Assembly (NCBI GenBank): GCA_038087875.1
Contig: CM075988.1
Span: 16,804,001-16,868,000 of the forward strand
Direction: 5' to 3'
Source: Malacoraja senta
Lineage: Eukaryota
Length of the DNA stretch: 64,000 nt
Below are positions 4,201 through 52,300 of this stretch, piece by piece (within the stretch, counting starts at the first letter, position 1; every line of letters starts with the position of its first letter). The notes beneath the pieces were generated by a model. The model worked only from the letters and a program-made list of their open reading frames with translations. It did no database searches and was not told where the DNA came from. The translations under genes and the position numbers were made by a program.

Positions 4201-4552
4201 TTTTTAATCTGATAATATGTAACGAGTCAAGTTTAATAAATATTCTCAAAAGAGCAGTTCCCCAGAAATGAATGATCATAGCATGAAGGGCATAACTGGA
4301 GCAATATTGTCCTTATGGACACTCTTTCAAAACTCTGGATATAGACCATCAGGTCCTGGGGACCTAGCAGCTTTCAGTCCCATTCACTTCTTTAATATTA
4401 CTAGGTTCTTTTATGTTATCATTTGCACTAGACCATTGGTTCTGTCCGGGATGTATTTTTTGTGTTCATGACATCAGATACAAAATATTTGTTTAATTCC
4501 TTGCCATTTCCTTATTCGCCCCTATTCAATTTTCCTATCACACTCAAACTAA

Positions 4553-4932
4553 AGGGCCTGTCATACGAGCATGCGACTGCATGCGGCAAGCGCGACCAAA
4601 CCGGAAGTGGGGGCCGCGCGGAGGTCGAGTGAGTGACGTGGAGTTTGAGCGAAGTCCGCGGGAAGTTCGCGCGTGACGTACGGCGTCAAGACGCAGTGTA
4701 CGGCGTCGAGGCGGTGCGTACGGCGCTGAGGCGGCTGCGGGCCGGCAGGCCGTGCGGAAATTTTGAACAGTGTCAGTTTTTCGGAGCACCGCGCGATGTC
4801 GGGACCAGCTCCGCACAACTCCATACGGCTCCGGCGATCGAAGTGGGACTGGCCCCGCGTGGCCGTACGGCTCAAGCGACCACTTTAGGTCGCGCTTGCC
4901 GCATGCAGTCGCATGCTTGTGGGACAGGCCCT
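4553..4932. mobile_element. PIF/Harbinger-type MITE
   Basis: ~45-bp TIR AGGGCCTGTC...GCGCGACC / GGTCGCGC...GACAGGCCCT; flanks TAA and AAA; CpG-rich, non-coding. Confidence 0.85.
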
Positions 4933-6970
4933 AAAAGCACATTTTCCATTGTGGGCTTTTCCCTTTTATCTTCCTATAAAAGTTTTCACATTATGTTTTT
5001 GAACTCATTCTGATATGACAGTGGATTGTTTAATGCTTCTTTGTATGTATGCGAAGGTAGACGCCAAATGCTGGAGTAACTCAGCGAGACAGGCAGCATC
5101 TCTGGAGAGAAGGAATGGGTGACAATTTGGGTCGAGACCCTTCTTCAGACTATTGTATGTATGCATCTGGGTTAATTGCAAATGGAAAAAAAAAGATTTT
5201 CAAAGGAAACTTAACTTTTTTGACCCTGCTGTCAATTTATGCCTGTGTACTCACACCTACTTACTGTTGGGATCAGCAAACAATGGGTAGAATGGCCTTC
5301 TTTTGTGTTATACATTTTCTATGATTTTCTTTGATCTTCGTACATGTCCATTGTAGCTCCTAGCACATTGCTCACTGTGCACCACCATTGAAGTGGATAC
5401 AATTACTACTACTTCACATTACAAGGGTAGGGAAGGTTTGGAGAGATATGGGTCAAATGCAGGCAGGTAGAACCAGCCCAGAATGCAAACTTGGTCAGCA
5501 TGGATAAGGTGGGCTGAAGGGCCTGTTTCTGTGTTGTATAGCTCTAAGACTCGGTGACTACGCCATCAATGGCTGTGCCAACATCCTACACTCTGGAATT
5601 CTCTCCCTATACCTCATTATTTTTCTCTCTCACTCCTTTGTTTTTTTGCATTCTGAAATTTCAGCAGCTCCATGCCAGCCTTTATCTAAAAATGTTCCTT
5701 TTGAATATTTTACAGCATTTAAATTGCATTGCATCTTACTTTTAGAAACCATGCATCTTCCACTGATTTCACATTTAAACTTACTTTGAGACAGGCAGAG
5801 TTAATGATCGGAGAACAATCCTGGTTTGACATCAGAAGCACAAGTGATGTGGCCAAAATCCCCAGTGGCCTTGTGTACCTGGATGGTGGTCTGTTGGGGT
5901 CAGTTGTGTAATGGGCAGACCATTTACCAAATGTGCCTACCAACGGGATCACCATTTTATTCTGAAACCAAGTTTTTCTACTGACCTATTTATTTCCTCA
6001 ACCGGACTAAATTTATTCAGAAAGTCAAGCTTAGTACGAAAAAACATGAAGAGGGCTCTGGAGGCAAGCAAAACAAAGCTACATTAACGGCAGCAAATGG
6101 TTAAGATCAATCAGACTGCTGACACACTTATTGGTGTAAGTTGTAAGCATCATGATAGATTGTACGGTGGCAATTCAATAGTCCGACCGCATTTATTGAA
6201 GACAAAATCTTCTAGATTACATGTCAAGTAGATGGAGTGTACAACTCCAGGTTTATTAAATATTAAAGGCTCGCAAATCTCAGCACCATTGCCTTAGAAA
6301 ATAAATGAGAGTTGATCATTAAAGGGCGCATGGTAGGATATGTATCTACATCCAGCATGTCCACGGTAGCAAGTCCAATATGCATGGAGCTAACTGTCTG
6401 AAGAAGGGTCCTGACCCAAAACATCACCTATTCATTCTCTCTAGGGGCGTTGCCTGACCCGCTGAGTTCCTCAGGGACTTTGTGTTTTGCTCAAGATTTC
6501 AGCATCTGCGGTTCCTTATATCTCCAGACACCCATACAGATACATCCATTAATATCTTAAAATAGGTGGGTGTGGGCACAACCAGCCAGCCACATTGAAC
6601 TAGCTTCAGTAGCATAACGATCATGGACACTCTCTTCATCTCCAATCCCTCATTCAATTCAGAGGTATATCATGGGTTTTATTGTAGGTCGGAACCAATG
6701 TACCATCTCAAACCATGTTGCTTTGTCATTGATGCCATTTTCTGGTGGCAGGGTGAGGCGGAGTTAATTTAGGGGAGAATATTTACAGATAATGAAGGGA
6801 GAGGAGCATTTACTCAGCGTTCCCTTTGCCCTGGGCCTCCCTGAAGAACTGGGTTGCATCAGGCTCTCCCTGCTTCAATATCTATTAAACTCACAGCCTT
6901 TTACAATCGTCAGTGCTCCTTCACCAGTCCAGCCAAAGCCATTCACCACATTCCACGGCCCAGAGTTAGA

Positions 6971-29870: not shown

Positions 29871-31546
29871 AAGATCTAGTCACCCCATTACAGGAAGGAT
29901 GTGGAGTATCTGGGGAAGATGGACAAGAGGTTTGCCAGGATGCTGCCTGGATTCGAGGGTATTAGCTGCGAGGAGAGGTTGGACAGACTTGGATTATTTT
30001 CTCCAGAGCACCGAAAGTTGAGTGAAGACCAGACAGGAGTTATATAAAATGATCAGGGCCACAAATAGGGTAGATAGTCCAAACTATTTCCTCAGGGTGC
30101 AAATGTCAAACACTAGAAAGCACAACTTTAAGATAAGAGGAGTAATGTTTAATGGAGATGTATGGGGCAAGTTTTTTTTACACAGAGGATGGTCGGTGTC
30201 GAGAACACACGCTGTGCTGGAGACAGATAAGATCATGTCGTTCAAGAGGCTTTTAAATGGGCATGGATATGCAGAGAATGGAGGGATGTGGATAAGGTGC
30301 AGGCAGATGAGATTAGTTTATCTTGGTATCATGCCTGGCACAGACATTATGGGCTGAAGGGACCATTCCTGTTGTGTAGTGTTCTATGTTCTGAGTTGGA
30401 TGAGAAGCTAGAGCGCAGGTCACAGGATCCCTGCATCAACATCAGAAGGAGCACACCATGGCCCAACGGTAGAGTTGCTGCCTTACTGCGCCAGAGACCC
30501 GGGTTCGTTTCTGACGATGGATGCTGTCTGTACAGAGTTTGTAAGTTCTGCCTGTGACTGCGTGGGTTTGCTCCAGGTGCTCTGGTATCCTCCCACACTC
30601 CAAAGAAGTACAGGCTTGTAAGTTAATTGGTTGTGTTTCATGTGTAGGATAATCAATGTTAGCGTCTGGGATGATTGCTGGTCGGCGCGGACACATTGGC
30701 CGAAGGGCTTGTTTCCGTGCTGTATCTCTAAAGACCATGCCACACACCTCATCCAAACTCTCCATCCAGATCAAACTGCATCACGCAAGGGCACTGCAGT
30801 GTGGTACTCCCTCAGAACATTACTGCGGTGTCTGTGTAGCAGATGAGGTTGAATCATTGCACAAACACACCGCATTTTGATTCAATTCTGAGCGAAACTC
30901 AAATTAGCGCAAGGTCAGCAGAAACGAAAGCAGCTCCTGGGATAACGATATTACTGTAAGTATCAAATGACAAGGACCATCCTACACACTGCCTTCAAAG
31001 GATGAACACATCCGTCTCACACGAACCTTATCTCTGCTACAAAGGCCCACATAATGTGGCAAACGTTCACACAGGCATTCAGTCATTAATCCCCTTCTCC
31101 ACACTGATGCAAGCGTTGCGGTGCAAGCATCACCAGGCAGTTTAGAGTGGATTATGCAGACTCAATCCCTTCAGCCTTTGAGGGAGGAAAATGGTTCTTC
31201 AAATCTCATTTTCTGCCACGAGCATTTAGCAAATAATCACAGCACAAATCCCTCTCCTTAAGCTCAAGACAAGAAAAGACAACAAGCCAAAAAAAAGTGG
31301 TTCGATTGGAGGTGTTAAAAGAATTAAGCAGAACAGATAGCTGTGCACTGATCCCGAAACATCACAGGCAATCAACAAGGCAGCCTAAGAGGCCACGTCA
31401 CCATCTCGGAAGATGCGACAAACTTGTGGGACGCAGGATATTTGTTCACAAATCTTTTGTACAATCTGGGATGGGGGTTGTTTTCCATCGGCATTGTTTT
31501 TTTGGATACCATAAGTAGAATAGCATAGTACCAAATACCATATGTG

Positions 31547-35536: not shown

Positions 35537-36811
35537 AGGTTACTCCACAAAATGCTGGAGTAACTCAGCGGGACAGGCAGCATCTCTGGGGAGAAGGAAT
35601 GGGTGACGTTTCAGGTCGAGACCGTTCTTCATACTGATGCCAGGGGAGGGGGCGGGACAGAGATAAAATGTAGTTGGAGACTGCAACACTGGTGGGAAAA
35701 CTGGGAAGGGGGAGGGGATGGAGAGAGAGGGAAAGCAATAGCTACTTGAAGTTAGAGAAGCCAATGTTCATACTGCTGGGATGTAAGTTACCCACGCAAA
35801 ATATGAGGTTCTGTTCCTCCAATTTGCACTGGGCCTCATTCTGATAGTGGAGGAGGCCCAGGGCAGAAAGGTCAGATCGGGAATGGGAGGGGGGAGTTAA
35901 AGTGCTGAGCAACGGGGAGATCAGATAGGTTTAGGCGGACTGAACGGAGGTGTTCAGCGAAACGCTATCCGGGCCTGCGCTTGGTCTCGCCGATATACAG
36001 GAGTCGACACCTGGAACAGCGGATACAGGAGATGAGATTGGAGGAGGTAAAAGTGAACCTCTGCCTCACCTGACAAGACTGTCAGCGTCCTTGGACGGAG
36101 TCAAGGGGGGAGGTAAAGGGACAGGTGTTGCATCTCCTGCGGTTGCAGGGAAAAGTACCTGGGGAGGGGATGGTTTGGGTGGGAAGGGACGAGTTGACCA
36201 GGGAGTTGAGGAGGGAACGGTCTCTGCAGAAAGCAGAAAGAGGTGGAGATGGGAAGATGTGGCCAGAAATAGGATCCCGTTGGAGGTGGCGAAAATGTCG
36301 GAGGATTATGTGCTGTATGCGACGGCTGATGGAGTGGAAGGTGAGGACATGGGGGACTCTTTCCTTGTTATGAATGGGGGGAGGGGGAGCAAGAGCGGAG
36401 CGGTATATCGAGCAGACTCTAGTGAGATCCTAATTTACAATGGAAGAGGGGAACCCCTGTTTCCTAAAGAATGAGGACATCTCCGATGACATGGTAGGGA
36501 AAACCTCATCCTGGGCGCAGATGTGGCTTAGACGGAAGAATTGGGAGTAGGGGATAAAGTCTTTACAGGAAGCAGGGTGGGAAGAAGTGTAGTCTAGTTA
36601 GCTATGGGAGTCAGTGGGTTTGTAATAGATGTCAGTCGATAGTCTGTCTCCTGTGATGGAGACGGTGAGATCTTGAAATGGTAGGAAGATGTCGGAGATG
36701 GTCCAAGTGAATTTGAGTGCAGGATGGAAATTAGTCGTGAAGATGAAGTCAGTGGAGTCTACTTTGAAGAAGTTCTCCTCCTCTTTCCGACGAGAGTTCA
36801 CATTCCGACAC
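35537..36811 (-). mobile_element. 5'-truncated Penelope-like element (RT C-terminus, GIY-YIG endonuclease, 3' end), degenerate
   Basis: NFHPALKFTWTIS...TDIYYKPTDSH (RT end); CIRCSRCRLLYIGETKR (GIY-YIG); 14-bp direct repeat AACCTACAAACCTG at 35523-35536 and 36812-36825. Confidence 0.9.
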
Positions 36812-42422: not shown

Positions 42423-42593
42423 TGATGTATCTGAGAGCTTATGTAATGCAATACATGCATTGAACTGTATACAAAAATGAATTTACCTGTACCTTGGTAC
42501 ATGTGACAAATAAAGTGCATTTGAACCATTAAACCATTGAAGTGGTGGTGTTCTTGCTTCCTTGTCTTCTAGATGTAGAGGTGGTGAGACTAA

Positions 42594-43107
42594 AGGGCCT
42601 GTCCCACTTACGCGACCTTGGCTTGCAAATTACGTGACCGCGGTGGCCGCTTGAGGCGTACGGGCCTCGCGGGGCCAGTCCCACTTGGAAGCGCGGAGGC
42701 GTATGGAGTTGTGCGGGGCTGGTCCCGACATCGGCGGGGCTCCAAAATTCCTGCAGTGTCTGAACATTTCGTGCGGCAACGGCCTGTCGGCACGCAGGCG
42801 CATTGCGGTCGTACGCAGCATCTTGACGTCATATGCAGCGTCTTCACGGCGTACGCAGCGTCTTGATGGCGTACACCTAGCGCGTGGCGTTGCGCGATGA
42901 CGTCATCACCTGGTGTCGTGTTGCGTGATGACGTCACCGCCCGACGCCGTGTGACGCACAAATTTAGTCGGCCCGCCTCCTGCCCAGCTGATTGGTCAGC
43001 ATGACGCAAATGACGTCACGCTCGTACTTAGCACGAACTTTGCGTGAACTCCGCTTCCGTTTGGTCGCGCCAAACGCATGCAATCGCATGCAAGTGGGAC
43101 AGGCCCT
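42594..43107. mobile_element. PIF/Harbinger-type MITE, relative of 4553-4932 in opposite orientation
   Basis: TIR AGGGCCTGTCCCACTT / AAGTGGGACAGGCCCT with a perfect TAA TSD; internal blocks are reverse complements of the 4553 copy. Confidence 0.9.
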
Positions 43108-44046
43108 TAAGATGCACTATTGGAGTAGCATGGGCAAGTCACTGTGAAGCATTTTGTAGAGTCAGGCCCAACGCCCATGCTGACCAAGATGCCCCATCTG
43201 CGTTAGTCCCACCTACTCACATTTGACCCATATCCCTCTAAAACTTTTCTACCCATGTACCTGTCCAAATGTTTTATAAATGTTTTAATTGCACTTGTCT
43301 CTATTTCCTCCTCTGGCAGCTGGTTCCATGAACTGTTGGAGGGAATGGATGTATAGGGAGATTGATGGAGTGCCAGTCAAGCAAGTGGCTTTGTCCTAGA
43401 TGGTGTTGGGCTATTTAAGAATGATTGCACTGCATTCATTCATGTAACTGGAGAGTATTCCATCTCACTGCTGTCTTGTGCCTTGTAGATGGTGGAAAGG
43501 CCTTGAAGTGTCAGCAAGTGAGTCATTCACTGCAGGTTACTGAACTGCCCTTACGCCCACAGTAGCTATTTGCTTGTCCGGGTGAGTTTCTGATCAATAG
43601 TGACACTCAGGCTATTGATGGTGGGGTATCAGCATGCCAGTGACTGCCAGGGGCAGATGGTTAGATTTGCTCTTGTTGGGAAAGGACATCACCTGCTATT
43701 TTGCAACATTAATATTATTTACCATTTCTCAATCCATGTCCGAATGTTGTCTGGGGTCTGAAGAAGGGTTCAGCCCCGTAACGAAATCTATCCATGTTCT
43801 CCAGAGATGCTGCCTGATCCGCTGAGTTACTCCAGCACTTTGTGTCCTTTTGTCTAGGTTCTTGCTCTGTGCAGGTATAATCTGCTGCATTTGTTGAGGA
43901 AGGCAAATGGAATTGAATCATCATTTCCTATCTTGTGGTTAAAGGAAGCCCATAGTCAAAGCAATGGTGGATGATTGGGTCCAGGACCTGCCTCAAAGGA
44001 CAAATCCTGAGGATTTGTCAGAGGGGGTAATGTTTAAAGGAGATAT

Positions 44047-44689
44047 TGATAAAGCTGAATTATGTTAAAAATATAAGAAAAGCTTACAGCTTATATTTAG
44101 TCTCAAATCAGGCTTTTCTCCAGTAGAATAATACAGAAAGGCAAGTTAAGTTGCCTCAGGTTTTGGGGTATTGCGATAATAAATACCATAACATTATCTC
44201 CCAAGTGAGGAAGTGACAGAGAGGAAACAGCGAAAGAGCTAGGGTGATCTCTTTGAAGATAAGATGCCATAAAACAAATGGCCTATGGTTATGAAGGACC
44301 AAGTGACAGAGAGGAAACAGCGAAAGAGCTAGGGTGATCTCTTTGAAGATAAAATGACCTAAAATAAATGGCCAATGTTTTTAGTATATCATAACCTGTA
44401 AACAAAAGGCCTTTGATGTGATGCCTTTTCCTGTACCTCTGACCATGACTAATGTCTGTGGAATGTGCTAATGTGACAAAGAAACACTATATAATGCGAT
44501 GTAATTCTGTTGTTCAGAGAAGGGGACCGAGGACAGTCGAGTGTCTACATTGGTCACTTAGCTGGAATTCTCGCTCCCTTCCATCGGCCGATGTTAAGTA
44601 AAGTTTGAACTGGTCTACCAAACAGTTTGTGTGGTGTCTGTTTATTGAGAAGCGAACCTGGTTTAGTAGTTATAAAAGTAACTTTTTCA
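44047..44689 (+). repeat. 5' LTR
   Basis: Starts TGATAAAG, ends CTTTTTCA (imperfect terminal inverted repeat); ~80-bp unit duplicated at 44211 and 44301; TATATAA at 44488-44494; AGTAAA at 44597-44602. Confidence 0.96.
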
Positions 44690-44690
44690 T

Positions 44691-44707
44691 TGGCGTAGTT
44701 ATGCAGG
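44691..44707 (+). promoter_or_regulatory. Primer binding site, tRNA-Ser-like
   Basis: TGGCGTAGTTATGCAGG one base after the LTR; resembles TGGCGTAGTCGGCAGG, the complement of a vertebrate tRNA-Ser 3' end, with an internal mismatch/insertion. Confidence 0.75.
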
Positions 44708-44893
44708 CCTCGCTGGGACCACATCAACGGCTGACTGTGCAAGAGGTTGCAGAGGTTGCCGGGATTGGAAGGGAGATAACTGAGCTCTATCGGCCCCCTT
44801 GTAAGACCGACTCCCTAGAAACTCCCGGGAACGTCTGTGATCCTTCATCAGAGGTTGATCCAGGTTCCCTGCCGAGGTTCTTAGAAACAGACC

Positions 44894-44902
44894 AAGGTAA
44901 GA
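44894..44902 (+). promoter_or_regulatory. Putative major splice donor in the ERV leader
   Basis: AAG|GTAAGA about 200 nt downstream of the PBS and upstream of gag, the usual retroviral position. Confidence 0.55.
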
Positions 44903-45496
44903 CCAGTTGGGCTTTATAGGTTTTTTTTTTTAAGAAGGGATTGTGTATGTATTTTTAAGACAGAATTGTGCATGTATTTTTAAGATGGGCTTGTGTATAT
45001 TGTTAAGAAGGACGTGAGTGGTTTCTCTTTCTCTCTCTCTGTCTATCTCTCTTTGTTTTTTTCTTTTCTCTCTACTAAGGGCTTATCGGCCTCGTTGAGA
45101 CATCCGTGTTTTGTCGGGTTGAGATACGGGAGTTGAGGTGTGCGTCTGGCTTATTGAAACATCCGGGGAGTTGTCGGATTAAGAAATAAGTGGCGTTGTA
45201 TATTAAAGATTAAGAAGTCTGCCAGGTTGAGAAACGGGGGGTCTCGGTTAGCGGGTCTGCTTCGTTGAGACACATGGGGCTTATTTTAGGTCTGCCAGGT
45301 TGAGAAACGGGGGTCTCGGTTAGTGAGTCGGCTTCGTTGAGACACTTGGGTCGTATATCAAAGAGGTAAAGAAAAATAAAAAATCAGCCAAATTGAGAAA
45401 CTGGTGTCTCGAGTAGCGAGTCGGCCTGGTTGATATATTTGGAGCGATTCGGAATTAAGAAGTCTGCTTTCTCTTTCTCTTTCTCTCTATCTATCT

Positions 45497-46480
45497 ATGG
45501 GGAATGCTCTGGATAACAGTGAGGGGGGAACCCCCGTCCAACATATGTGTTATTTGAATCCTAAGTATAATAAGACATTTAGAATGTTAAGTTACAAGTT
45601 GACCAAACGGTTGGGGGATGAAGCCGCGCCAGTAGGGGGCACATGGAATGTCGAGACAATTAAAAAAGCAGAAATGTTGATATGGGAAAGGAAGGCAGGA
45701 AAGAAATGGAAGAAGGGAATTAAGATGTGGAAAGCAGAAGCAGAGAAGAAGCAGGAGGAGAGTAGAGATCGAAGTTGGATGGATACTGCGTGTAAACAAG
45801 GGATAGAGTTACGAAATAAGGATGGCACTATGAATGGATGGAAAGTATTGCAACTAGAATGCCAGTGGGCGGAGGAACAAGAGAAAATAATTAAGAGACA
45901 GGCAGGAGGTGAGAAACAGGTGATGGTTAGTAAAAATAACCTCAGTACTGGTAAATCCTCTGGAGGAGACTTCATGTCTGGCACGACGACCCTGTTTGGT
46001 AGTGAAGATGAGGAGTTAGATAATCCTGGGAGATGTCCACCTCCCTACGTCCTACCAGTAGCGATGGCATACTTACCTGTGGCAGCTCCGTCAGTAATAT
46101 CCCTATACCTTGAAGTTCTGACCTTACAAAGCTCCCCAGGATTGGGAGCACGGGAATGCCTTTCTGTGCGTTATTTGCTTAAGGCATTGATGATACCAGA
46201 ACAGCTGACCATTATTAAATGTGCTGCACACACTGGTGCTGGGGACCCTATAACCAAAGGCAATGCATTTGCTGATAGTGTAGCCAAACAAACAGCCTAT
46301 GCATCCAAATGCTTAGTGACATCTGGTAAACAGATACTAGCAAATAGAACGGTCCTGCCAAACATGAGGGAAGTATGTACATTACAGAGGGACGCCTCTG
46401 ATAACCCAAAACAACTATGGAAACAAGAGGGCTGTGCCATTGATTCGGCTCACCCCGCTTGGACAAGTTGGTGTATCTGA
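45497..46480 (+). CDS. gag: 327-aa chimeric ORF: Gag N-terminus (matrix-like region plus PPPY late domain) fused in frame to the RNase H C-terminus
   Basis: MGN start (Gly2, possible myristoylation), basic N-terminal region, PPPY, then LLKALMIPEQLTIIKCAAH...GNAFADSVAK, typical of the retroviral RNase H C-terminus. Confidence 0.85.
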   Translation: MGNALDNSEGGTPVQHMCYLNPKYNKTFRMLSYKLTKRLGDEAAPVGGTWNVETIKKAEMLIWERKAGKKWKKGIKMWKAEAEKKQEESRDRSWMDTACKQGIELRNKDGTMNGWKVLQLECQWAEEQEKIIKRQAGGEKQVMVSKNNLSTGKSSGGDFMSGTTTLFGSEDEELDNPGRCPPPYVLPVAMAYLPVAAPSVISLYLEVLTLQSSPGLGARECLSVRYLLKALMIPEQLTIIKCAAHTGAGDPITKGNAFADSVAKQTAYASKCLVTSGKQILANRTVLPNMREVCTLQRDASDNPKQLWKQEGCAIDSAHPAWTSWCI

Positions 46481-47048
46481 TGCATTTTTACCTGTTTTAC
46501 TAACATATATTCACTCCCTTACCCATGCTGGTAAGGAGGGAATGATAAGGATGACAAAGGAAACGTGGTGGCACCTAAAAATCCGGCAAGAGGCACTGAA
46601 GCAGGCCTCTGAATGTAAAATTTGCCAACTAAATAATCCAGGCAAACCAATTAGGATACCCTCAGGGGTGACACCAATGCCATCACGACCGTTTGAATGC
46701 ATACAGATTGATTTTATTGAAATGCCAAGGGCCCAGTGTTATAAATATTGCTTAGTTATTTTAGATTTATTTAGCAGGTGGATTGAAGCTCCACCAACCA
46801 CTAATGATACTGCTGAGACTACAGTAACATTGGTGTTAAGGGAAGTTATTCCCAGGTTTGGCCTACCTACTGTCATAAGCTTGGACAATGGTCCCCATTT
46901 TATTGCCACTATTAATAAGGAAATATGTACACATTTTTATATCCGACAGCAATTTCACTGTGTACATCACCCACAGGCATCTGGGATGGTGGAAAGAGCC
47001 TATGGGGCATTGCAAAACAAAATTACCCCGGGGGAATCCTTTTTCTGA
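46434..47048 (+). pseudogene. pol: Retroviral integrase HHCC and catalytic core, frameshifted relative to RNase H and truncated
   Basis: HSLTH...CKIC zinc motif; QIDF, LDNGPHF and SGMVER give the D,D,E triad; homology ends near ALQNKI. Confidence 0.92.
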
Positions 47049-47922
47049 CAAGCAACTATGTTATAGAAAAATTGGGGATGAAGACAAATTCGGTGGAGAA
47101 ATGAGGATAGGATAGGGAGACTGAAAAGTCACGGGGAGTCTGAATAATCATGATCTGGATCAAAGTATAATTAGGGTTAGGTAACCAGGATTCTGGTAAA
47201 CAGAAGTCTTGTCAGAAAAAGGGAAAGTAAATTACAAAGAGACGTCTTTGAAGATGAAATATTATATACTGCTGGTAAAACAATTTTTTTGTGTGTATGT
47301 ACTGCTTGTAAAACAATGTTTTTTCTATGTGGAATGTGTGAAATTTGAAGCAATGAGCAAAAGTGTGAGTCCCTTTAAGAACAGTTTGTCCTTTAAAATG
47401 CAAATGAACAGGCAGGTTATGGTGTGTTCCTTTAAGACACTGCCATGAATGGGGGGTGGAGTTATACTCAAATGATAAAATGTGTTGGAGCAAATGATAA
47501 AATGTGTTGGTTGTTATAAATCTTTTGAGCCGAGTTCAAAAAGAGACTCATCCCAATTAAAGTGTTAAATGAGATTGGAAATGTCAAAATTACAGAGAAA
47601 AAGAAAATGTATTATTGATTACTGATTCTGAGTGAGTTCTTTTGGGATTGTTTTGATGTGATAACAGAGGTTGTCCTTTAAAATGCAAATGAAGCAAGAT
47701 TATGGTCTGCAGACGAACAAAGGTGTTGAAGCATGTGCTGTGTAAGGGAAATGAATGTACATGTAAAATTGTCTTATGGCTTACAAAAGGGGGTTTGAGG
47801 GATCTCATAATGAGGGATAAAAGGTGAGAAGATAAGTAGATTGGGGAAGAGAACATATTTGGAGAATTTAATATTTAGGTGGGGAGAGATATAATCGGAT
47901 TAAAGAATAAGTTCACAGAGAA

Positions 47923-48053
47923 GTGTTTAAGAAGGAACTGCAGATGCTGGAAAATCAAAGGTAGACAAAAGTGCTGGAGAAACTCATGGGATGAGGCAGC
48001 ATCTATGGAGCGAAGGAAATAGGCATCATTTCAGGCCGAAGCCCTTCTTCAGA
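47923..48053 (-). repeat. Penelope 3'-end repeat embedded in the ERV
   Basis: Same family as 52165-52295 and 63492-63622, with several substitutions including CpG decay. Confidence 0.88.
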
Positions 48054-48336
48054 GTAGATTGGGGTTATTCAACTGCAGCTAGAGAAACAGGATTTACAAC
48101 TTTTTTATTGATTCAGGAAAGGCTGCTGTGCCCACACCCTGGAGAGTGGGGGGAAGCCACCTACAGGCCCTGGGCAATTAACTAATTATGTATGGACAGC
48201 AATTAATCCAGGTCTTGCCAGATCTGCATTCCCAGGTTAGAGGAGCTGTGAGCACAGGGACGAGTCCATAAAGGCTACAAAATGACCATGTGCTGGGACA
48301 AGAAGAAATTGAGATTGTGTTGAAAGGAAAAACCAA

Positions 48337-48414
48337 GTGCTATCAACAACATAAACTGCTGTGAAGATTGAAGATCATCGTCGTTGGATACATTTGATTG
48401 ACTGTGAACGGTTT
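48337..48414 (+). pseudogene. pol: Degraded integrase C-terminal segment
   Basis: Translates VLSTT*TAVKIEDHRRWIHLIDCERF, like the VLLTTPTAVKV...WIHxSHC motif of gamma/epsilon integrases. Confidence 0.75.
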
Positions 48415-48664
48415 GTGGAGCTATTGACCCTCTTTTATTCTGGGGTGGCCCACATGGACTGGACTTTCTTCAGAATGGCAAACTTGCGGACTAACCCACA
48501 TTTAAAGGATGGTACATACATCCTTTTAAACAAGATTGGAGTCAAACATGACAAATGCAGCAAAGATACCCAGACTACAGACAGTGAGATAATTTGCCTG
48601 ATGAGATGCTTATGGTCTTTCGTATGTACTCGGCAAGGACTGTAGTGATTATCAAGATTTTGAT

Positions 48665-48676
48665 AAAAGGATGGAA
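48665..48676 (+). promoter_or_regulatory. Polypurine tract
   Basis: AAAAGGATGGAA directly before the 3' LTR. Confidence 0.75.
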
Positions 48677-49319
48677 TGATAAAGCTGAATTATGTTAAAA
48701 ATATAAGAAAAGCTTACAGCTTATATTTAGTCTCAAATCAGGCTTTTCTCCAGTAGAATAATACAGAAAGGCAAGTTAAGTTGCCTCAGGTTTTGGGGTA
48801 TTGCGATAATAAATACCATAACATTATCTCCCAAGTGAGGAAGTGACAGAGAGGAAACAGCGAAAGAGCTAGGGTGATCTCTTTGAAGATAAGATGCCAT
48901 AAAACAAATGGCCTATGGTTATGAAGGACCAAGTGACAGAGAGGAAACAGCGAAAGAGCTAGGGTGATCTCTTTGAAGATAAAATGACCTAAAATAAATG
49001 GCCAATGTTTTTAGTATATCATAACCTGTAAACAAAAGGCCTTTGATGTGATGCCTTTTCCTGTACCTCTGACCATGACTAATGTCTGTGGAATGTGCTA
49101 ATGTGACAAAGAAACACTATATAATGCGATGTAATTCTGTTGTTCAGAGAAGGGGACCGAGGACAGTCGAGTGTCTACATTGGTCACTTAGCTGGAATTC
49201 TCGCTCCCTTCCATCGGCCGATGTTAAGTAAAGTTTGAACTGGTCTACCAAACAGTTTGTGTGGTGTCTGTTTATTGAGAAGCGAACCTGGTTTAGTAGT
49301 TATAAAAGTAACTTTTTCA
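48677..49319 (+). repeat. 3' LTR
   Basis: Block-by-block reading shows no difference from 44047-44689. Confidence 0.96.
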
Positions 49320-52300
49320 ATATGCAGGGCAAGGTTATTTTTAATACAGAGGGTAGAGGGTGCCTGGAGCAAACTTACGGGGGCAGTGGTGGAAAAAGAT
49401 ACAAGACTGGTATTTTAAGAGAGTTTTAGATGGACATATAAATATGCAAGGAATGGAGGGATATGGCTGACATGAAGGCAGAGGAGATTAGTTTAACATG
49501 GCAAGATGTTAGTGGCATTTAAACGACTTTTGGATCGGCATATGATTATACAGGAAATGGAGGGATATGGGTTATGTGCAGATAGGTCAGTGATGGTCTT
49601 GGTATCATGTTCGGCACAGACATGTAGGCTGAAGGATCTGTTCCTGTGCTGTACTTTCCATGTTCCACAACTAACCCACAGGAATTGAATCTTGGTATTA
49701 GATGATCAAAACTGAAAACAAAGACAGTCAATTCTCCTCCCACCCAAAAGGCAAAAAAAAAGGGTTATTCGTGCGTTTTCTCCAAAATGGTAACAAACTG
49801 TGGGCAATTTGGAATATTTTCCTCGTTCATTTCAATGACAACTCTAAAGACTATGGGAAAGATGAGCTTTAAACAATGCAATAACTTAGCTTTAAAATAT
49901 ATCCCAAACATTCATTATTGTATAGTAATTGCACGTCATGTAATTACAGCCTTATCAAAAATTAATGAACAGGTTATGGTCCTGAAATTACAGGAGGTTT
50001 TTATTAATTCAGTACTACAGCCAAGCAACTGTCTGATCATCAAGTGGTAATTAATAATTTAGGACAAAGGTAGAACAGTTTTACCAAAAGCTAAACACTT
50101 CCCTCCGTCGCTCAATCACCAAATGCACAGGTTTCTCATGGCGTGGGCCAGACGGACCAGGTGACTCCCACATTAGATATCCTGGGTTGGACCTAAGCCA
50201 GAATTCCCACTCAAGATCGCCTTTCTAGAATCTAAAAATGGAACGAGACTACGGGCAAAAGCTGACTTGGAGGAATTGTTCAGCAATAACATTTTACTCA
50301 TGTGTCTGGACAAGAACTGATGGGCAATGTAAGAGGTCTATCATCCTTACCTCCACTCCACACAGTGAATCCAACTCCACACAGACAGCACCCGTGGCCA
50401 GGATTGAACCCTGGTCTCTAGTGCTGTGAGGGAGCAGTTCTACTGTGTTGCCCTACAAAATATCATATAGTCAAAGAGAGATACAACACAGAAACAGGTC
50501 CTTTAACTCCTACTGCCTGTCAAACTCACATTTTCTTTCTAATGGCAATCCTGCCATAACACATTTCACTTTCCCCACATTTGCATCAATTCCGCCTCCG
50601 ATTCTATCCCCTGTCTAAGCACCAGAAGGGCCCAAATGGCAGAAAACCCCACAGGTGCAGTACCCGAAGTCAGGATCGATCCCGGGTCTCTGGAGCCTTG
50701 AGGCAGTGGCTCTACCAGCTGCACCACCAGGTCATAAGGTCATAAGGCCCTAAGGTATAGGAGTAGAATTAGGCCATTCGGCCCATCAAGTCTATTCCAC
50801 CATTCAATCACGGCTGATCTATCTCTTCCTCTTAACCCCATTATCCTGCCTGATCCCCATAACCTCTGATACCTGTACGAATTAAGAATCTATCTATCTC
50901 TGCCGTAAAAATATTCACTGACAGCCTCCACAGCCTACTGTGGTACAGAATTCCACAAATTCACCACCCTCTGACTAAATACATTTCTCCTCATCTCCTT
51001 CCCAAAGGTACATCCCCCAATTCCAAGGCTATGACCTCTAGTTCTAGACTCCCACTAATGGCAACATTAGAGGTCGCCCAAAGCCTGCAAAAGCCCAGCA
51101 AGCCACTCATTTCAAGAGGATTTGGAATGGGCAATAAATGTTGGTCGTCATTTGCCAGATGTCGAGAGTGTTTAATTGGAATTAACGGAACAATGAAATT
51201 CTTACTTGCAGCAGCATACCAGATCTGTAAACACAGTACTTATGGGGCAGCACAATGGCGCAGCAATGGAGTTGCTGCCTTACAGTGTCAGACCTGTGAC
51301 CATGTGGGTTTTCTCTGGGTGCTCTGGTTTCCTCCTACATTCCAAAGACATGCAGGTTTGTAAGTTAATTGTCTTTGGTAAAAGAATTGTAAATTGTCCC
51401 AAGAGTTTAAGATAGTGCTAGTGTACGGGGATCTCTGGTCGGCACGGACTCAGTGGGCCGAAGGGCCTTTCTCTAAAGTCTAAAGTGAAGTCTAAACGTA
51501 ACACAATAAACAAAAGAAAATTCAAAATTCTTTATATCAACAAAAGGATCAGGAATAGGAAAGCTCAATGCCCAGAAACGACCAGAAACTATATTTAACA
51601 CAGAGAAACAGGCACGGCTTAGAGGGATATGGGCAAATGCAAGCAGGTGGGACTAGCGTCGAAGGGACAACCTGATCGGCATGGGCAAGTTGGGCCATAG
51701 GGCCTGTTTCTATGCTGTGTGACTCTATAAATATGACAACATAAATGCAACCTACTCCATGGACCATTTCCAGCAATCTAATCTTTTCCTAAACCCAAAT
51801 TTGTTAAAAGAAAATCAGGAAACGTACGACTATAAACATAATATTCAATCAAGCACTTATGTTCTGTTTTCTGTTACGACAGACAATAAAGTTTTCTGAA
51901 TCTGAATCTGAATCTGAATGATATACACACTGTCCACTGAACACCCCAATATGTAATTATTTATTTCCCATTGGGAAATTATTATATAAAAATTTAAAAA
52001 ACGTTTTTTTTAAAATAAAGATGCAAAGATTTTGACTCCATAAAATTGTGTGACAATAAAAATGTTTTAATTAAGACTTGAATTTCAGGGTTCAAAGAAC
52101 CTAAACCCTGAAACTCTGCTCTCACAGATGATGGCACTATTGAGCCAGTTGTCTCAGTACAGTATGTTTAAGAAGGAACTGCAGATGCTGGAAAATCGAA
52201 GGTTGACAAAAATGCTGGAGAAACTCAGCGGGTGAGGCAGCATCTATGGAGCGAAGGAAATAGGCGACGTTTCGGGCCGAAACCCTTCTTCAGACAGTAA

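What the first reader, a model, noticed from the sequence alone, without database searches (positions are those of the whole stretch)
44047..49319. Very young insertion of a long-decayed retrovirus: probable helper-dependent ERV lineage
Seen: identical 643-bp LTRs, perfect ATAT TSD, PBS, PPT and splice donor, but no CA, NC, PR, RT or env, a frameshift before integrase, and a stop-containing integrase C-terminus. Established: LTRs are identical at integration and diverge afterwards. Inference: the coding decay predates this insertion, so the element was packaged and copied in trans. That implies a currently or recently active epsilon-like helper retrovirus in this fish lineage, a VL30-like satellite arrangement.
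Basis: partly seen in the sequence, partly recalled or inferred. Interest (0 to 1): 0.85.

Follow-up and report, generated by a model that had tools for sequence, protein, structure and literature searches.

The report
Gutted skate retrovirus still being copied
A retrovirus relic with identical end repeats but no capsid, protease, polymerase or envelope sits at a site that appears empty in three related genomes and shares its main deletion with older copies in other species, so it was likely copied in fairly recently with proteins borrowed from an intact relative that was not found; this is a known lifestyle, seen here in what is probably a skate.

Summary
Observation confirmed. The LTRs are identical (643/643) and ATAT is a true 4-bp target duplication. 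Gag is cut after matrix/PPPY and fused in frame to the end of RNase H. CA, NC, PR, RT and env are absent, a frame break precedes integrase, and the integrase tail is decayed.

Both halves of 'old decay, young insertion' gained outside support. In 3 of 3 whole-genome runs laid, flank contigs stop exactly at the duplication and run on unlike the LTR (apparent empty site); one run has 0/645 flank differences. The gag-RNase H junction recurs in copies 9-11% diverged in three other organisms.

The helper is not shown. Same-family pieces holding the missing parts exist (open CA-NC Gag; RNase H in two skate gene models), but no same-family RT. 'Very young' rests on the empty site, since slow shark-like rates let identical LTRs be up to ~10 My old. 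The closest analogue is mouse IAP I-delta-1 rather than VL30. Verdict: a new member of a known kind, in a host group where one large survey reported no currently invading ERV.

The parts
44043..44046 (.). left copy of 4-bp target-site duplication (ATAT), inside a host LINE-like repeat remnant
44047..44689 (+). 5' LTR, 643 bp, TG..CA; 90-bp tandem duplication at 44211-44377; TATA-like motif 44488; AGTAAA poly(A)-like motif 44597
   Evidence: motif roles inferred
44691..44707 (+). primer-binding-site-like stretch, one base after the LTR (tRNA-Ser-like, recalled; imperfect)
   Evidence: sequence; tRNA match not tested
44690..45496 (+). long leader with splice-donor-like motif at 44895 and internal repeats; CpG-rich (o/e 0.84 vs 0.25-0.29 in pol remnants); likely holds the packaging signal
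   Evidence: fold of 44518-44900 z = -1.99 only
45497..46132 (+). gag 5' part (matrix to just past PPPY), open for 212 codons
   Evidence: 53% identical over 214 aa to full Gag P0002, 83% over 53 aa to P0003
46133..46165 (+). junction of the large gag-pol deletion (CA, NC, PR, RT, most of RNase H absent); in frame
   Evidence: bridged in X3, X4, X15
46166..46460 (+). RNase H C-terminal part and tether, fused in frame to gag; frame break near its end
   Evidence: 74 of 90 aa identical to skate gene model P0113
46476..47027 (+). integrase zinc-binding and core domains, open, in a different frame from the gag fusion
   Evidence: Pfam Integrase_H2C2 and rve; tree
47030..48060 (.). ~1-kb AT-rich non-coding insert splitting integrase; origin unknown
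   Evidence: left junction bridged in X4 and X15
47924..48053 (.). 130-bp host dispersed repeat carried inside the element, aged
   Evidence: 91.5% to 52165-52294; 11 of 135 private differences vs 5 and 5 in two flank copies
48061..48426 (+). decayed post-core and C-terminal integrase remnant with stops and frame changes
   Evidence: tblastn hits at 48334-48426 from pols that carry MLVIN_C; 48061-48333 assigned by eye only
48427..48664 (+). short unassigned 3' segment; no env similarity detected
48665..48676 (+). polypurine tract abutting the 3' LTR
48677..49319 (+). 3' LTR, identical to the 5' LTR
49320..49323 (.). right copy of the target-site duplication

Best explanation
This is an internally deleted class I endogenous retrovirus with identical LTRs and no capsid, protease, reverse transcriptase or envelope, likely a recent new copy of an old non-autonomous lineage in a probable skate host, which would have been packaged, reverse-transcribed and integrated by proteins supplied in trans. 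Shown: the anatomy, the 4-bp duplication, the same gag-RNase H junction in diverged copies from other organisms, and flank contigs that do not enter the LTR. Inferred steps: (1) an ancestral provirus lost CA-to-RNase H and env and gained the ~1-kb insert, probably before the sampled species split; (2) such copies kept LTRs, PBS, leader and PPT and multiplied; (3) one copy that had itself aged in the genome was transcribed from its LTR; (4) Gag, RT and integrase from a coding-competent ERV, most likely an undeleted member of the same family, copied and inserted it here, which reset the two LTRs to identity.
For: LTRs 643/643, integrase-type duplication confirmed against an uninterrupted host repeat. 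Apparent empty site in 3 of 3 whole-genome runs laid: contigs follow the left flank to exactly 44046 and continue 253, 141 and 257 letters unlike the LTR (X1 record 2, X3 record 18, X4 record 26). X1 has 0 differences in 645 flank letters, X3 4.9%, X4 6.1%. If read as right flank, all three loose parts would end within about 10 nt of the end of the same duplicated motif, where contigs tend to break (suggestive only). The gag-RNase H junction is bridged by at least 44 nt each side in 3 of 4 runs (X3, X4, X15; 9-11% diverged), and an independent protein P0004 has the same in-frame junction at 80% identity. The core/insert junction is bridged in X4 and X15, and the frame break is spanned without gaps by an X15 contig 10.7% diverged. 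The host repeat inside has 11 of 135 private changes, 4 to 5 of them CpG-type, against 0/643 between LTRs. Multi-copy: single interior contigs have depth 600.9 (X1) and 1583.7 (X3) against 30-44 for flank contigs. Same-family pieces carrying missing parts exist: P0003, an open 422-aa CA-NC Gag, and P0005/P0113 with RT-connection plus whole RNase H from Leucoraja and Amblyraja.
Against: No intact helper was found. The best RT-bearing relative of the family's RNase H region is 49% identical (P0120), the best long pols are about 48% identical in integrase, and the integrase search for proteins of 334-2000 aa gave 1 hit, a Gypsy-type protein (the tool calls this weak evidence). The letters of the loose contig ends were not displayed, so the empty site is inferred from geometry, and only 32 of about 388,500 pieces were shown. 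None of the 8 X1 pieces shown bridges the gag-RNase H junction. No second full-length copy with different flanks was seen, because no genome is held. The frame break is not shared by the high-depth X3 contig, so the family is heterogeneous. Whether the 130-bp host repeat is shared with other copies could not be read. Summed contig depth is not a copy number.
Confidence: 0.78

Rival explanations
1. Same mechanism, but the insertion is some million years old and fixed; organism A is a close sister species, and the helper may be long dead.
For: 0/643 bounds LTR divergence only below 0.47%: up to ~1 My at 2.2e-9 and ~10 My at 2.2e-10 per site per year (the slower rate is assumed in PMC4422223, and PMC10587355 measures 7e-10 per generation in a shark). 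0/645 flank differences likewise allow 0.46%. No same-family RT was found.
Against: Zero differences on two separate flank contigs is simplest if A is the same species; X1 shows the uninterrupted flank at depth 29.9 against 35.4 nearby. High-depth contigs point to homogeneous, young subfamilies.
Confidence: 0.12
2. A young coding-competent provirus inserted here and later had its interior replaced at the DNA level by ectopic conversion from an old deleted copy, so no trans-packaging of the defective RNA was needed.
For: It would also give identical LTRs, a duplication, an empty site elsewhere and an old interior. Many donor copies appear to exist.
Against: It needs a conversion tract of about 4 kb within a short time; the deleted form is present at high depth in several organisms, which retrotransposition explains more simply.
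Confidence: 0.05
3. An old provirus decayed in place, and its LTRs were made identical by gene conversion or by assembly collapse.
For: Assembly collapse of LTRs could not be tested: no raw long reads were laid (one search holds contigs only).
Against: An old fixed insertion should be present in relatives, yet flank contigs of A, B and C run through the site without entering the LTR; the junctions are shared with non-orthologous, diverged copies.
Confidence: 0.04
4. The element entered intact and suffered all its lesions at this locus after insertion.
For: None beyond parsimony for a single locus.
Against: The same gag-RNase H junction occurs in X3, X4, X15 and P0004; the interior shows several percent ageing against 0/643 in the LTRs.
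Confidence: 0.01

Closest known systems
Mouse IAP I-delta-1 (PMC6466679, passages read)
   Same: [quoted passage not shown]
   Different: IAP is class II; this is class I. Here the deletion removes all of CA to most of RNase H, this copy's fusion is cut by a frame break before integrase, and integrase is split by a 1-kb insert. The cis role shown for the I-delta-1 fusion is untested here, and the helper is not identified.
Cattle ERVK[2-1-LTR] D-type, MusD/ETn, recKoRV (PMC10924933, passages read)
   Same: Defective morph keeping LTRs and the 5' gag and 3' ends, with foreign or old DNA in the middle, mobilised by competent members of the same clade.
   Different: Those pairs have both partners sequenced and de novo or polymorphic insertions measured; here the deleted morph spans several species and only fragments of a possible helper were seen.
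Mouse VL30 (PMC6466679, passages read)
   Same: Class I, non-autonomous, insertionally polymorphic, copied by co-packaging.
   Different: VL30 is a separate group co-packaged by MLV; this element is 82-83% identical in protein to undeleted pieces of its own family, so it reads as a deletion derivative rather than a satellite of another virus. Cross-family help is not excluded.
Class I / clade Mu (epsilon-like) ERVs of cartilaginous fish (PMC6001957, passages; PMC4422223, part 1 of 2)
   Same: The family's RNase H is closest to MLV/XMRV among solved structures (E 1e-35, against 1e-8 for HIV); single zinc knuckle Gag; MLV-type integrase tail; integrase groups with Heterodontus and Leucoraja pols at 98/91 support.
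   Different: The elephant shark ERVs described were dated at over 50 My (LTR divergence 2.4-3.3%); this copy has none. No named epsilonretrovirus was in my tree, so clade Mu is by inference from host range.

Membership tests
LTR retroelement integrated by a retroviral integrase | Paired LTRs with TG..CA ends and a short target duplication | tested here: met
LTR retroelement integrated by a retroviral integrase | PBS complementary to a host tRNA 3' end, and PPT | tested here: inconclusive
   PPT present; PBS position right, tRNA-Ser match only recalled and imperfect; no tRNA in the window to compare
Class I ERV | Pol closest to gamma/epsilon retroviruses; MLV-type integrase tail; one zinc knuckle | tested here: met
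   (RNase H tested through same-family P0005); one knuckle in P0002 and P0003. The integrase core alone is closest to foamy virus among solved chains, which does not favour class I.
Epsilon-like (clade Mu) ERV | RT groups with WDSV-like viruses | not testable with these tools
   RT absent; no reference epsilonretrovirus available; integrase tree shows only a cartilaginous-fish group
Non-autonomous ERV (I-delta-1 / D-type kind) | Lacks the genes for its own replication but keeps cis signals | tested here: met
Non-autonomous ERV (I-delta-1 / D-type kind) | Same lesion in several independent copies | tested here: met
   junction bridged in 3 of 4 runs laid and in P0004; separate loci with own flanks not seen
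Non-autonomous ERV (I-delta-1 / D-type kind) | Recent or polymorphic insertion of the defective form | tested here: met
   apparent empty site in 3 of 3 whole-genome runs; loose letters not displayed; conspecific status of A inferred
Non-autonomous ERV (I-delta-1 / D-type kind) | A coding-competent partner in the same genome | tested here: inconclusive
   fragments only: P0003, P0005, P0113; no same-family RT; no genome
VL30-like satellite | Separate lineage co-packaged by another retrovirus | tested here: inconclusive
   own-family undeleted pieces exist, which favours a deletion derivative; packaging partner unknown
ERVi of Wang and Han 2023 | Identical LTRs, intact gag-pro-pol-env, polymorphic | tested here: not met
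   genes not intact; criteria

The most novel reading that the evidence does not exclude
One deleted ERV lineage arose before several skate species split, has lived off helper proteins for many millions of years, and is still inserting in the germ line today. That would be indirect evidence of currently working retroviral RT and integrase in cartilaginous fish. Its in-frame gag-pol fusion would be an independent class I parallel of mouse IAP I-delta-1, possibly aiding its own copying in cis in those family members that lack the frame break.
Probability: 0.3. Interest if true: 0.62.

Novelty: new member of a known kind. Interest (0 to 1): 0.42.

Why it matters
Helper-dependent ERVs are well known in mouse, cattle and koala, so the mechanism is not new. 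The value is the host and the time span. A survey of 2004 vertebrate genomes, including 13 cartilaginous fishes, lists no cartilaginous-fish order among the 37 orders with currently invading ERVs (PMC10435555, section 6 and supplement searches). That survey required RT and intact genes, so elements like this one were invisible to it. A polymorphic defective copy would show that retroviral copying machinery worked recently in a very slowly evolving lineage, would mark the family to look at, and would give presence/absence markers for skate population genetics. It is also a caution that LTR identity dates poorly in these fish.

Tried and rejected
No whole genome is held, so copies could not be counted and no undeleted element could be searched for directly. 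The metagenome scan with P0003 returned 35 loci, all matching only the C-terminal part around the zinc knuckle; none was used. The viral-contig scan with integrase gave 0 relatives from 3 pattern matches. Rfam: 0 matches in 43500-50000. Atlas for the 96-aa 3' ORF: no usable hit, so no env remnant can be claimed; Pfam on that region read with X at the stop gave 0 families. No RNA holder listed; X15 was flagged 'probably DNA', so nothing is said on expression or on splicing of the 1-kb insert. The joint and loose-end tables were swamped by the host repeat and gave nothing on other insertion sites or on contigs running from gag into capsid. One X1 contig (depth 600.9) ends exactly at the gag junction, a weak hint of branching that I do not count. 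Codon position of the variant sites listed (29 of the 40 rows shown, out of 493): 7 of 12 third-position in matrix (p = 0.07), 3 of 17 in RNase H/integrase; this shows no selection in pol and is inconclusive for matrix. Leader fold z = -1.99, 3 of 100 shuffles as good: not evidence of a special structure. Pfam gave no family for the two ORFs near 36 kb that I took for Penelope-like, so that label for the 130-bp repeat is recalled only. Earlier scan findings: 3 look-ups, nothing. Literature: 9 searches listed no paper on this family or on non-autonomous ERVs in skates; the library lacks most subscription journals and Repbase/Dfam, where the family may already be catalogued.
Full report
1. Observation. 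The element spans 44047-49319. Its LTRs are identical over 643 of 643 bases, the exact match stops at both ends, the termini are TG and CA, and ATAT lies on both sides. The target is a host LINE-like repeat (CR1 label recalled). An uninterrupted copy near 30139-30188 aligns with the left flank end and the right flank start with the right spacing only when ATAT is counted once, so the duplication is real. A PBS-like stretch begins at 44691, a donor-like motif is at 44895, and a 12-base purine tract abuts the 3' LTR. No other copy of the LTR is in the window.

2. Anatomy. After an 807-base leader, an ORF from 45497 runs 327 codons. Residues 1-212 are gag: 53% identical over 214 aa to a full 566-aa Gag, P0002, and 83% over 53 aa to P0003, which continues as an open capsid-nucleocapsid region. 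After a short junction (46133-46165) the same frame encodes the end of RNase H and the tether, 74 of 90 aa identical to an Amblyraja radiata gene model, P0113, that still has the RT connection and whole RNase H. A short deletion near 46450 breaks the frame; P0113 reads through this region in one frame. Integrase zinc-binding and core domains follow in another frame. Then come about 1 kb of AT-rich non-coding DNA, the decayed integrase tail at 48334-48426, and about 240 unassigned bases with no env similarity.

3. Host and class. The closest named relatives are gene models of Amblyraja radiata, Leucoraja erinacea and Rhinoraja longicauda, so the host is probably a skate (inference). The family's RNase H is closest to MLV and XMRV among solved structures, its Gags have one zinc knuckle, and the tail matches pols with MLVIN_C: class I. 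In a tree of 36 integrase rows (hits covering under 140 residues left out), the window's integrase groups with Heterodontus and four Leucoraja pols at 98/91. No named epsilonretrovirus was in the tree; PMC6001957 (passages) places fish class I ERVs in clade Mu, so 'epsilon-like' is inferred. Against a neat assignment, the integrase core alone hits foamy virus integrase best in the PDB.

4. Is the insertion young? LTR identity alone is weak here. The 95% upper bound is 0.47% divergence, about 1 My at 2.2e-9 and 10 My at 2.2e-10 per site per year (rates from PMC4422223, part 1 of 2 read; PMC10587355, passages, gives 7e-10 per generation in a shark). Better evidence comes from public runs. Of 21 listed runs, 20 hold part of the interior, from 8 organisms and 11 studies; I laid 4. 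In all three whole-genome runs a contig follows the left flank to exactly 44046 and goes on unlike the LTR: X1 for 253 letters, X3 for 141, X4 for 257. The first LTR base differs from the base expected in the empty allele, so a stop at 44046 is what an empty site gives. X1 shows 0 differences in 645 flank letters, X3 4.9% and X4 6.1%. The loose letters were not displayed; their lengths would all end near the same duplicated motif in the right flank, which is suggestive. X1 may be the same species, the source sample or a close sister. In the first two cases the locus is polymorphic; in the last it postdates a split with under 0.5% divergence.

5. Is the decay old? The gag-RNase H junction is bridged by contigs in X3, X4 and X15 that differ from the window by 9-11%, with at least 44 letters on each side, and P0004, from another contig, has the same in-frame junction at 80% identity. 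None of the 8 X1 pieces shown bridges it. The junction between integrase core and insert is bridged in X4 and X15. The frame break is spanned without gaps by an X15 contig but not by the high-depth X3 contig, which is longer there, so sub-lineages exist. The embedded host repeat has 11 of 135 private changes, against 5 and 5 in two flank copies, some of which are alignment-end columns. The nearest material in organism A holds 0.54 of the interior's words, about 2% difference, though contigs drop rare variants. Junction-sharing copies in B and C are about twice as diverged as the flanks of the same organisms, which suggests the deletion predates those splits (inference).

6. Copy number and helper. 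Single interior contigs reach depth 600.9 in X1 and 1583.7 in X3 against 30-44 for flank contigs, which points to multi-copy, homogeneous subfamilies; summed depth is not a copy count. An intact helper was not found. Searches gave same-family fragments only (P0003; P0005 and P0113). The best RT-bearing hit to the family's RNase H region was 49% identical among 71 hits, the integrase search for long proteins gave 1 Gypsy-type hit, and the contig scans gave nothing usable. A different family in Leucoraja has open 1203-1225-aa PR-RT-RH-IN models with near-identical integrases at four entries, so recent pol activity in skates is plausible, but at 48% identity it is not the obvious partner. No env was seen anywhere, so a helper may be an intracellular retrotransposing ERV rather than an infectious virus.

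7. Mechanism. Most likely (0.78): an old deleted lineage kept its cis signals; an already aged copy was transcribed, packaged, reverse-transcribed and integrated by proteins of a competent ERV, giving identical LTRs and a fresh duplication. The anatomy and shared junctions are shown; the empty site is shown by contig geometry; transcription, packaging and the partner are inferred. Rivals: same mechanism but some My old with a dead helper (0.12); DNA-level replacement of a young provirus's interior (0.05); old provirus with converted or collapsed LTRs (0.04); decay in place (0.01).

8. Comparison. It works like mouse IAP I-delta-1, whose deletion also leaves a gag-pol fusion and which depends on other IAPs (PMC6466679, passages), and like cattle D-type ERVK, ETn and recKoRV (PMC10924933, passages). 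It is a member of none of these. VL30 fits less well because undeleted pieces of the element's own family exist. Non-autonomous ERVs and identical LTRs are also reported in zebrafish (PMC8672886, passages: 248 of 890 with identical LTRs). PMC10435555 (passages, section 6, term searches over all 14 supplements held; one large PDF could not be read) screened 13 cartilaginous fishes and lists none of their orders among ERVi hosts; its filter needed RT and intact genes. Nine searches listed no description of this family; repeat libraries could not be checked.

9. Verdict. A real, well-supported case of a young copy of an old defective ERV lineage; known kind, new host group, helper unproven. Interest 0.42.

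Noticed in passing
window 42590-43111 and about 4549-4935: A ~520-bp element with 20-nt terminal inverted repeats, flanked by TAA on both sides, and a 77-82% similar copy near 4.5-4.9 kb; looks like a PIF/Harbinger-type miniature transposon (label recalled).
   Followed up: partly
P0006 (Rhinoraja longicauda gene model XP_078286998.1): Joins gag matrix of a related family (55-59% identity to the window's) directly to the post-core and C-terminal integrase; may be a second, independent deletion derivative keeping the same two ends, or a gene-model artefact.
   Followed up: no
P0111, P0116, P0118, P0119 (Leucoraja erinacea gene models): A separate class I family with open PR-RT-RH-IN models and near-identical integrase cores at four entries, so apparently young; the models end without the MLV-type integrase tail.
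   Followed up: partly
window 44690-45497: The leader keeps CpG (o/e 0.84) while pol remnants are depleted (0.25-0.29); could reflect a maintained cis region or lower methylation.
   Followed up: no
window 47834-47845 and 48053-48064: A 12-base direct repeat brackets the host repeat plus about 80 upstream bases inside the insert; may be a target duplication or chance similarity to the repeat's own continuation.
   Followed up: no
window 47383-47426 and 47668-47709: Two 84% similar 44-base motifs inside the 1-kb insert; the insert's origin (second ERV leader, intron, captured DNA) is unexplained.
   Followed up: no
whole window: About 30 copies of one short (50-130 bp) host repeat; two ORFs near 35944-36474 lie next to one copy and looked Penelope-like to me, but Pfam gave no hit.
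   Followed up: partly
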